From a virus (lineage: Duplodnaviria > Heunggongvirae > Uroviricota > Caudoviricetes), in the IMG/VR virus record IMGVR_UViG_2609459834_000004: 12,229 bases of DNA, one strand, 5' to 3'. This document shows, piece after piece, positions 7,200-7,255 of this stretch (the stretch's first letter is position 1; every line of letters starts with the position of its first letter). The notes beneath the pieces were generated by a model. That model saw only the letters and a program-made list of their open reading frames with translations, was not told where the DNA came from and did no database searches. A program made the translations under genes and the position numbers.

Positions 7200-7255
7200 A
7201 CGATGGGGCGGGCAGTCCGGAAGACGTCAGGCCGCAGGGATTTGACCCGCCCCTC
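7200..7255. other. Candidate cos / packaging-initiation region (GC-rich inverted repeat GGGGCGGG ... CCCGCCCC)
   Basis: Between the HNH gene and small terminase, where HK97-like phages place cos. GGGGCGGG at about 7205-7212 and CCCGCCCC at about 7242-7249 flank ~30 bp; the left arm resembles lambda cosN (GGGCGGCGACCT). Confidence 0.3.

What the first reader, a model, noticed from the sequence alone, without database searches (positions are those of the whole stretch)
7200..7255. Candidate cos site flanked by HNH and small-terminase genes
A GC-rich inverted repeat with a lambda-cosN-like GGGCGG core sits exactly where HK97-like phages carry cos, between the HNH endonuclease (a known terminase cofactor in such phages) and the small terminase. 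If correct, the HNH / small terminase / large terminase / cos set looks like a complete packaging module.
Basis: inference. Interest (0 to 1): 0.4.

Follow-up and report, generated by a model that had tools for sequence, protein, structure and literature searches.

The report
Phage cos (DNA packaging cut) site
The stretch between the phage HNH nuclease gene and the terminase genes is very probably where this prophage's DNA is cut into genome-length pieces for packaging; it carries the exact 10-base cohesive end already mapped by experiment in Shigella phage SfI, so it is real but ordinary.

Summary
The inverted repeat exists (GGGGCGGG 7205-7212 / CCCGCCCC 7246-7253) between an HNH gene (7280-7630, -) and a P27-family small terminase gene (6660-7154, -). 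On its own it is unremarkable: an 8-bp repeat arises in about 10% of shuffles, the fold is no more stable than shuffles, and the arms do not covary in 53 relatives.

The cos interpretation holds through homology. Window 7214..7205 (- strand) is exactly TGCCCGCCCC, the 10-nt gap found by run-off sequencing of phage SfI virion DNA. The flanks are 97-98% identical to phages SfI, SfII, SfIV and SfV.

The cut is not centred on the repeat. One arm is the cohesive end itself. The other arm lies in a conserved upstream box (GGGGCGGGTCAAATC).

In SfI, HK97, D3, Gamma and phi105 this box ends exactly 29 bp before the left edge of the cohesive end. A third, almost invariant block (ACCCGCGAAAAATGAAATTTAA, 7170-7199) is the likely small-terminase site.

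The left edge (AC|YG) matches the CG|GT nicking specificity measured for homologous HNH enzymes. This suggests HNH nicks one strand and the large terminase the other.

The resemblance to lambda cosN is superficial. The intergenic region occurs in 1121 of 5426 complete E. coli genomes. Already known; low interest.

The parts
7280..7630 (-). HNH endonuclease gene (116 aa) with an N-terminal zinc ribbon (CxxxxC...CxxH) and an HNH/[CxxC]2 domain. It is the terminase cofactor and the proposed bottom-strand nickase.
   Evidence: Pfam PF01844, E 5e-15. Translation. Full-length match to GVE2 HNH endonuclease PDB 5H0M, E 4e-12. 35% identity over 105 aa to Bacillus phage Gamma HNH, E 1e-15. 45% identity over 42 aa to HK97 gp74.
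7239..7258 (-). Conserved upstream box: G-rich run GGGGAGGGGCGGG (7258..7246) followed by TCAAATC (7245..7239). Proposed cosQ-like element at the end of the packaged genome.
   Evidence: High information content in 58 aligned relatives. The same box ends 29 bp before the cohesive end in SfI, HK97, Gamma, phi105 (as a C-rich variant) and D3.
7219..7238 (-). Spacer of variable sequence but fixed length, between the upstream box and the cut site.
   Evidence: Low information content, yet the 58 relatives line up ungapped over it; MAFFT on 53 of them placed single-column gaps only in the six most divergent rows.
7215..7218 (-). GGAC, the conserved bases immediately left of the cohesive end. The proposed nick in the window + strand lies between 7214 and 7215 (5'-GGGCA|GTCC-3').
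   Evidence: In the aligned relatives A is 95%, C 98%, the next base is C in 59% (T in the window and its close relatives) and the following G is 97% conserved. This matches the CG|GT / CA|GT nick sites of homologous HNH enzymes (PMC3592412).
7205..7214 (-). cosN: the 10-nt cohesive end TGCCCGCCCC, inferred to be a 3' overhang. The - strand nick lies between 7205 and 7204. It coincides with the terminase-proximal arm of the inverted repeat (7205-7212).
   Evidence: Exact match to the 10-nt gap in SfI virion DNA. Unique exact match in the window. In register with the HK97, Gamma, D3 and phi105 ends.
7170..7199 (-). Nearly invariant block TTTTTTATACCCGCGAAAAATGAAATTTAA (+6 to +35 from the - strand nick). 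Candidate small-terminase recognition site, equivalent to cosB.
   Evidence: Conserved even where TerS is only 46-50% identical (Comamonas, Acidovorax). It stays next to cosN when about 60 nt are inserted before the TerS start in Xenorhabdus, Providencia and Morganella. It resembles the HK97 TerS site CTAACCCGATTTTTT at +15..+29 (PMC11331095).
7163..7167 (-). Ribosome-binding site AGGAG of the small terminase gene.
   Evidence: Read from the sequence. Same position as in the SfV record.
6660..7154 (-). Small terminase TerS, P27 family (164 aa).
   Evidence: PF05119, E 1e-20. 666 homologues. The ATG at 7154 matches SfV orf1.
4930..6663 (-). Large terminase TerL (577 aa) with ATPase and nuclease domains.
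   Evidence: PF03354 and PF20441. 25% identity over about 520 aa to HK97 gp2, E 2e-29.

Best explanation
This is the cos site of an SfV/SfI-type lambdoid prophage: HK97-like head genes, a P27-family small terminase and an HNH cofactor.

On concatemeric DNA, TerS binds the conserved block just downstream of the cut (7170-7199). It positions TerL and the HNH protein. Two staggered nicks are made 10 bp apart. One is in the window + strand between 7214 and 7215 (5'-GGGCA|GTCC). The other is in the - strand between 7205 and 7204. This leaves the 10-nt 3' cohesive end TGCCCGCCCC. The upstream G-box/TCAAATC (7239-7258), a fixed 29 bp from the first nick, lies at the last-packaged end and probably acts in termination, like lambda cosQ.

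Shown: the sequence identity to an experimentally mapped cos, the intact gene set, and the conserved three-block architecture with fixed spacing.

Inferred: the 3' polarity, which nuclease cuts which strand, and the roles of the two flanking blocks.

The 8-bp inverted repeat is a by-product of a G-rich box and a C-rich cohesive end. It is not a functional hairpin.
For: The exact 10-mer TGCCCGCCCC at 7214..7205 equals the SfI virion-DNA gap. The region is 97-98% identical to SfI, SfII, SfIV and SfV. The SfI, SfV and SfIV records begin in the cos region, at window 7204 and 7221; the SfII record begins at 7279, just after the HNH stop codon.

A gap rather than an overlap in run-off reads from both ends implies recessed 5' ends, i.e. 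3' overhangs. This agrees with the HK97 10-nt 3' overhang.

In 58 distinct relatives (TerS about 46-99% identical; Enterobacterales to Comamonadaceae) three blocks are conserved and line up ungapped.

The box ends 29 bp before the left edge of the known cohesive end in SfI, HK97, Gamma (CGCCGCCCC), D3 (GCGCCCCCA) and phi105 (annotated cos).

The HNH protein is homologous to N.phiGamma (E 1e-15) and to GVE2 HNHE (E 4e-12). Their measured nick site is CG|GT, with CA|GT as a star site. The left edge reads CG|GT on the nicked strand in HK97, Gamma and many relatives, and CA|GT here.

The left edge is conserved and the right edge is not. This fits one sequence-specific nick and one nick placed by distance. 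The literature already proposes that HNH nicks one strand and TerL the other.
Against: There are no virion data for this prophage, and a 12-kb window cannot show that it is inducible.

The SfI paper does not state the polarity of the overhang. PhageTerm called 5' overhangs for Wbeta-like phages, whereas Fah is reported as 3'-extended.

The SfV record starts at window 7221, 7 nt left of the SfI-defined cohesive end.

TerS shows no detectable sequence similarity to HK97 gp1. Transfer of the HK97 TerS-site model is therefore by analogy only, and the ACCCG + A/T-tract motif sits 4 bp closer to the nick here.

In phi105 and D3 the ACC|G edge is one base off the CG|GT register.

HK97 gp74 and some other packaging HNH proteins are non-specific in vitro.
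Confidence: 0.88

Rival explanations
1. The inverted repeat followed by the T-run (on the - strand: GGGGCGGG...CCCGCCCC ATCG TTTTTTT) is an intrinsic transcription terminator at the end of the lysis/HNH transcript.
For: The minimum-free-energy fold pairs the two arms, and seven U residues start 4 nt after the stem. The T-run is conserved in relatives.
Against: The loop is 33 nt. The terminator scan found nothing in the intergenic region. The fold is no better than shuffles. The arms do not covary: 70.8% of cells are paired against 72.2% in shuffles, and RNAalifold finds no consensus structure. Many relatives keep the T-run with only 3-5 bp of complementarity. Late transcription must read through into the terminase genes.
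Confidence: 0.03
2. The sequence is a cos site but a relic. The prophage is defective, so the site is never cut in this host.
For: Many E. coli prophages are cryptic. Only 12 kb is visible. Close relatives in O157 strains carry an IS element in this module.
Against: All the packaging and head genes that were checked in the window are full-length with intact domains. The cos unit is identical to that of viable phages. Closely similar phages have been isolated as virions (SfI, SfII, SfIV, SfV and the vB_EcoM phages).
Confidence: 0.2
3. cos is here, but the cut lies at about 7221|7222, as the SfV GenBank record implies, rather than at 7205-7214.
For: The SfV and SfIV records begin at the base equivalent to window 7221.
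Against: The SfI paper calls SfV packaging 'postulated' and mapped the SfI ends directly. The SfIV record was linearised by analogy. The SfI position is in exact register with four other experimentally defined ends.
Confidence: 0.06
4. The repeat is a chance feature and the phage packages by a headful (pac) mechanism from another site.
For: The repeat alone has P of about 0.1.
Against: Exact match to a mapped cos. HNH next to an HK97-type TerL is a signature of cos packaging. The non-coding architecture is deeply conserved.
Confidence: 0.02

Closest known systems
cos site of Shigella flexneri serotype-converting phages SfI, SfV, SfII and SfIV
   Same: Identical 10-nt cohesive end TGCCCGCCCC. 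97-98% identical flanks. Same HNH - cos - TerS(P27) - TerL order.
   Different: A few substitutions in the spacer (CCCTGCGGCC against CTCTGTGACC) and at +1 (A against G). The prophage here has a different lysis region: P21-type holin, Bor, and a porin moron.
Bacteriophage HK97 cos with gp1 / gp2 / gp74
   Same: HNH gene, then cos, then TerS and TerL. A 10-nt cohesive end in the same register. An upstream GGGG..ATCAAATC box ending 29 bp from the left edge. GAC|CG at the edge. Homologous TerL.
   Different: TerS is not detectably related (no Pfam family for gp1). gp74 lacks the N-terminal zinc ribbon. The TerS-site-like motif is 4 bp closer to the nick here.
Bacillus phage Gamma/Wbeta cos (CGCCGCCCC) with the N.phiGamma HNH nickase; also phi105 and Pseudomonas phage D3
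   Same: Same TerS family, PF05119 (checked for Gamma and phi105 only). Homologous zinc-ribbon HNH. Nearly the same upstream box (GGGGCGGGTC) at the same 29-bp spacing. AC|CG at the edge, which equals the enzyme's measured nick site.
   Different: Overhangs of 7-9 nt instead of 10. Different hosts and phyla. Published polarity is inconsistent for Wbeta-like phages.
Lambda cos (cosQ - cosN - cosB)
   Same: A tripartite layout: an upstream element on the last-packaged side, the nick site, and a TerS site on the first-packaged side. Shares the hexamer GGGCGG.
   Different: Lambda has a 12-nt 5' overhang (established knowledge; not tested here) whose 12-mer GGGCGGCGACCT is absent here, no HNH protein, and unrelated terminase subunit families.

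Membership tests
SfV/SfI-type cos site | Cohesive-end sequence 5'-TGCCCGCCCC-3' between the HNH and TerS genes | tested here: met
   Exact and unique at 7214..7205.
SfV/SfI-type cos site | Flanking DNA and terminase genes closely related to SfI/SfV | tested here: met
   97-98% nucleotide identity over TerS and the cos flank. Joined record ends align base for base.
SfV/SfI-type cos site | Virion DNA has unique ends at this position | not testable with these tools
   Needs virion DNA. Known only for SfI.
HNH-dependent, 3'-extended cos packaging (HK97 type) | HNH endonuclease gene directly upstream of cos and the terminase genes | tested here: met
   PF01844 protein at 7280-7630, 125 nt before the TerS gene. 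This organisation is described.
HNH-dependent, 3'-extended cos packaging (HK97 type) | TerL homologous to HK97 gp2 (PF03354 + PF20441) | tested here: met
   Same two Pfam domains. BLASTP E 2e-29.
HNH-dependent, 3'-extended cos packaging (HK97 type) | TerS homologous to HK97 gp1 | tested here: not met
   No BLASTP similarity. gp1 has no Pfam family, whereas this TerS is PF05119. No PDB sequence hit. The module is of the P27/Gamma/phi105 TerS type, not HK97's own.
HNH-dependent, 3'-extended cos packaging (HK97 type) | 3' polarity of the overhang | not testable with these tools
   Inferred from the 'gap' in SfI run-off reads and from HK97.
HNH-dependent, 3'-extended cos packaging (HK97 type) | Upstream G/C box + TC(A/G)AA ending 29 bp before the left edge of the cohesive end (a feature defined in this work) | tested here: met
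   GGGTC ends at 7244 and the edge is 7215|7214. The spacing is the same in HK97, SfI, Gamma, D3 and phi105.
Lambda-type cos | cosN 12-mer GGGCGGCGACCT with Nu1/gpA-type terminase | tested here: not met
   The 12-mer is absent. Pfam matched these subunits only to PF05119 and to PF03354/PF20441; that lambda Nu1 and gpA belong to other families is prior knowledge, not tested here.
Intrinsic terminator | Short GC-rich stem, 3-8-nt loop, T-run directly after the stem, pairing kept in relatives | tested here: not met
   33-nt loop and no scan hit. z about 0. No covariation.

The most novel reading that the evidence does not exclude
HNH-dependent cos phages from Firmicutes to Proteobacteria share one ancestral three-part cos design. 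The parts are an upstream G/C-box + TCAAA element ending exactly 29 bp before the first nick, an AC|YG nick motif, and a TerS box. The AC|YG motif is the intrinsic recognition site of the zinc-ribbon HNH enzyme. The HNH protein would then be the sequence-specific nickase that defines one genome end, TerL would make the second cut by distance, and the upstream box would be a general cosQ-like termination signal. I did not find this stated in the papers I could read.
Probability: 0.35. Interest if true: 0.45.

Novelty: already known. Interest (0 to 1): 0.18.

Why it matters
For this window, it fixes the genome ends of a very common, unannotated E. coli/Shigella prophage type. The intergenic region is present in 1121 of 5426 complete E. 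coli genomes, and the eight listed hits have no annotated feature under it. Any DNA carrying roughly 7165-7265 should be packageable by these phages, which bears on transduction and on satellite elements.

The wider point is small but testable. The match between the conserved AC|YG edge and the measured nick specificity of homologous HNH enzymes gives a concrete answer to try on an open question for HK97-type packaging: which nuclease cuts which strand.

Tried and rejected
1. The inverted repeat as a functional hairpin or cruciform. Rejected: P about 0.1 in shuffles; fold z about 0; within-locus complementarity 5.45 bp against 5.31 bp between loci; no excess pairing or covariation; no RNAalifold structure.

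2. An intrinsic terminator. Rejected (and the results above).

3. Homology to lambda cosN. Rejected: only a hexamer is shared, it occurs 6 times in the window, and the 12-mer is absent.

4. Small covarying hairpins in the variable spacer. Mean best stem 3.40 against 3.17 +/- 0.11 in shuffles, from related sequences. Too weak to claim.

5. Direct TerS homology to HK97 gp1, or to any solved structure. None was found, so the TerS site is assigned by conservation and analogy only.

6. Rfam scan of the whole window: no match.

7. Literature. The SfV genome paper and Kala et al. 2014 are not held. A search for the Gamma cohesive-end string returned only irrelevant papers.

8. The viral-contig scan with TerS returned only 99-100% identical copies, which are useless for conservation analysis. 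It was replaced by the genome-contig scan.

Full report
**Layout of the region.** All genes around the finding are on the - strand. In order they are:
- Q antiterminator (11510-11908)
- P21-type holin (9435-9650)
- lysozyme (8938-9435)
- Rz (8480-8953)
- HNH endonuclease (7280-7630)
- P27-family small terminase (ATG at 7154, ends 6660)
- large terminase (4930-6663)
- portal (3556-4782)
- HK97-type prohead protease (2961-3620)
- major capsid protein (1721-2950)
- head-tail connectors

A porin gene (10163-11320) and a Bor lipoprotein gene (8107-8448) lie on the + strand. The finding sits in the 125-nt gap between the HNH and TerS genes.

**The observation.** The inverted repeat is real: GGGGCGGG at 7205-7212 and CCCGCCCC at 7246-7253, a perfect 8 bp with 33 nt between the arms. 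It is not remarkable on its own.
- A perfect repeat of 8 bp or more occurs in 9.95% of dinucleotide-preserving shuffles of the intergenic region.
- The hairpin is no more stable than shuffles, with z = -0.20 as RNA and +0.01 as DNA.
- GGGCGG or its complement occurs six times in the window, and the lambda 12-mer GGGCGGCGACCT is absent.

**Identity with a mapped cos site.** A megablast search against phage records shows that 6600-7700 is 97-98% identical to Shigella phages SfI, SfII, SfIV and SfV. The linear records of SfI, SfV and SfIV begin in the cos region: SfI position 1 equals window 7204, and SfV and SfIV position 1 equals 7221. The SfII record begins at 7279, just after the HNH stop codon.

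The SfI paper reports direct sequencing of the termini of virion DNA. Comparison with the prophage revealed a 10-nt gap, 5'-TGCCCGCCCC-3', and the authors concluded cos packaging (PMC3636060). That 10-mer is present exactly once in the window, at 7214..7205 on the - strand.

Polarity is my inference. Run-off reads toward an end copy the strand whose 5' end lies there. A gap between the two reads, rather than an overlap, means recessed 5' ends, i.e. 3' overhangs. HK97 has a 10-nt 3' overhang (PMC11331095 and PMC9410871).

**Conservation in relatives.** I aligned diverse TerS homologues and scanned one genome per species with the alignment. Together with the window and four phage records, this gave 58 distinct upstream regions that carry the anchor motif. 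Hosts range from Shigella, Serratia, Xenorhabdus and Gilliamella to Comamonas and Acidovorax, and TerS identity in these runs from about 46% to 99%. The two most distant loci (30% identity) lack the motif and were left out.

Anchored on one motif, the regions line up ungapped over about 90 bp. MAFFT on 53 of them added single-column gaps only in the six most divergent rows. Three blocks are conserved:
- **Block A:** GGGGAGGGGCGGG-TCAAATC (window 7258..7239).
- **Block B:** GGAC-YGCC..C (7218..7208), the left edge of the cohesive end.
- **Block C:** T-run + ACCCGCGAAAAATGAAATTTAA (7199..7170), almost invariant.

The right edge of the cohesive end (7205|7204) and the spacer (7238..7219) are variable. 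In Xenorhabdus, Providencia, Morganella and Photorhabdus about 60 nt are inserted between block C and the TerS start. Block C nevertheless stays next to block B. It therefore belongs to cos and not to translation initiation.

**The inverted repeat is not selected as such.**
- The longest complementarity between the block A and block B regions averages 5.45 bp within loci and 5.31 bp between loci.
- RNAalifold predicts no consensus structure.

The repeat is therefore a by-product of a G-rich box and a C-rich cohesive end. The same results, a 33-nt loop and no hit in the terminator scan rule out a terminator. Rfam finds nothing in the window.

**Comparison with other mapped cos phages.** I joined the record ends of four more phages:
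- HK97
- Bacillus phage Gamma, whose 9-nt CGCCGCCCC is repeated at both record ends and is reported as its cohesive end in the literature
- phi105, with cos GCGCTCC annotated at both ends
- Pseudomonas phage D3, whose 9-bp cos gcgccccca equals the last 9 nt of its record

All four carry the same upstream box: HK97 GGGGGGGGATCAAATC, Gamma GGGGCGGGTCGAAAA, D3 GGGGCGGGTCAAAAC, and phi105 a C-rich variant, CCCACCCTTAAATC. In each, exactly 29 nt separate the C of GGGTC (or its equivalent) from the left edge of the cohesive end. The spacing is the same in SfI and in the window, where GGGTC ends at 7244 and the edge is 7215|7214. Five independent end determinations therefore agree with the position inferred here. 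This argues against the SfV record start at 7221.

**Proteins.**
- TerL is homologous to HK97 gp2: 25% identity over about 520 aa, E 2e-29, with the same two Pfam domains.
- TerS has no detectable similarity to HK97 gp1, which belongs to no Pfam family. It shares PF05119 with the TerS of Gamma and phi105.
- The HNH protein has an N-terminal zinc ribbon plus the HNH/[CxxC]2 domain. It aligns over its full length with GVE2 HNH endonuclease (PDB 5H0M, E 4e-12). It is 35% identical to N.phiGamma (E 1e-15). Only its core matches HK97 gp74, which lacks the zinc ribbon.

The module is therefore of the P27/Gamma type within the wider HK97-like, HNH-dependent class.

**Mechanism.** Established work on HK97 shows the following.
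- TerS binds a 15-bp site at +15..+29, made of a GC core and an A-tract.
- TerS stalls the motor at cos.
- gp74 stimulates terminase cleavage.
- The authors propose that one strand may be cut by TerL and the other by the HNH protein.

Here the most conserved non-coding block lies at +6..+35. It contains ACCCG followed by an A-tract, like the HK97 site TAACCCGATTTTTTT, but 4 bp closer to the nick. I assign it as the TerS site by inference.

Xu and Gupta measured nick sites for terminase-linked HNH enzymes: CG|GT for N.phiGamma and the GVE2 enzyme, YG|GTY for phi105, and CA|GT as a star site (PMC3592412). With 3' overhangs, the nick at the left edge falls on the strand that reads CG|GT in HK97, Gamma, the Klebsiella phages and many relatives. 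In the window it reads CA|GT (5'-GGGCA|GTCC, + strand, 7214|7215). These four positions are the conserved ones, while the other edge is variable.

I therefore propose that HNH makes the + strand nick and that TerL, positioned by TerS, makes the - strand nick 10 nt away.

Caveats:
- In phi105 and D3 the register is off by one base.
- Some packaging HNH proteins are non-specific in vitro.
- PhageTerm reported 5' overhangs for Wbeta-like phages, against 3' for Fah.

The upstream box lies on the last-packaged side at a fixed distance. By position it resembles lambda cosQ, which is needed for bottom-strand nicking at termination (cited). This is analogy only.

**How common it is, and verdict.** The 125-nt intergenic region occurs at 80% coverage or more in 1111 of 5426 complete E. 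coli genomes, and in 1121 with any match. The eight listed hits have no annotated feature under the match. The TerS cluster alone has 2892 member sequences. The closest chromosomal relatives carry a tail-sheath gene downstream, as expected for SfV-like myoviruses.

The only part that may be new is the deep conservation of the three-block architecture and the match of its nick motif to HNH specificity.

Noticed in passing
window 10163-11320 (+): A complete Gram-negative porin gene (PF00267, E 6e-157) lies between the Q antiterminator (11510-11908, -) and the holin, on the strand opposite the late genes. It looks like a phage-borne outer-membrane porin 'moron'. The Pfam match starts at residue 49, so the true start is probably downstream of the first ATG.
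   Followed up: partly
window 8107-8448 (+): A Bor/Iss-type lipoprotein gene (PF06291, E 1e-30), a serum-resistance moron, lies between Rz and HNH on the opposite strand. The Pfam match starts at residue 35, so the listed TTG start is probably too far upstream.
   Followed up: partly
window about 7640-12229 compared with L157: Mosaic junction. The packaging and head genes match many E. coli prophages at about 97.5%, but the best genomes cover only 71% of the window. In strain NJS001 the lysis region is different: a lambda-family holin, a GH104 lysin and a DNA methyltransferase replace the P21-type holin, the lysozyme and the porin.
   Followed up: partly
window 7221 versus 7204-7214; L001, L002, L013, L014: The GenBank records of SfV and SfIV start 7 nt left of the cohesive end mapped in SfI. 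The SfII record starts right after the HNH stop codon. The deposited 'ends' of these phages are therefore not equivalent, and the SfV and SfIV starts are probably not the true termini.
   Followed up: yes
L161 + L159 (Gamma), L163 + L162 (D3), L160 + L158 (phi105), L010 + L009 (HK97): The same upstream box (GGGGCGGGTC-A/G-AA, or a C-rich variant in phi105) ends exactly 29 bp before the left edge of the cohesive end in phages of Bacillus, Pseudomonas and E. coli. In Gamma the edge GTAC|CGCC equals the CG|GT nick site measured for its own HNH enzyme.
   Followed up: partly
L112, L116-L133, L136, L138 (Photorhabdus, Xenorhabdus, Providencia, Morganella): A 45-65-nt insertion with its own T-rich stretch and ribosome-binding site separates the conserved cos block C from the TerS start codon. 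Its function is unknown.
   Followed up: no
window 7219-7238 and the same columns in relatives: The variable spacer often holds a short palindrome or hairpin of differing sequence, for example GACGTC here, AGGCGATCGCCT in L115 and GGGGCGAGCCCC in L139. The excess over shuffles is weak: mean stem 3.40 against 3.17 +/- 0.11.
   Followed up: yes
window 4772-4933 (-): A 53-aa ORF between TerL and portal overlaps both by a few bases. It is annotated as a hypothetical protein in E. coli NJS001 and has no Pfam match.
   Followed up: no
window 7640-8100: About 450 nt between HNH and Bor contain no convincing gene. ORFs 7788-8054 (+) and 7453-7728 (-) have no Pfam match.
   Followed up: no
L097 (JAEWTL010000102.1): A 5.6-kb contig labelled as a Bacillota metagenome-assembled genome carries this enterobacterial TerS/cos region at 98% identity. 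This is probably a binning contaminant.
   Followed up: no
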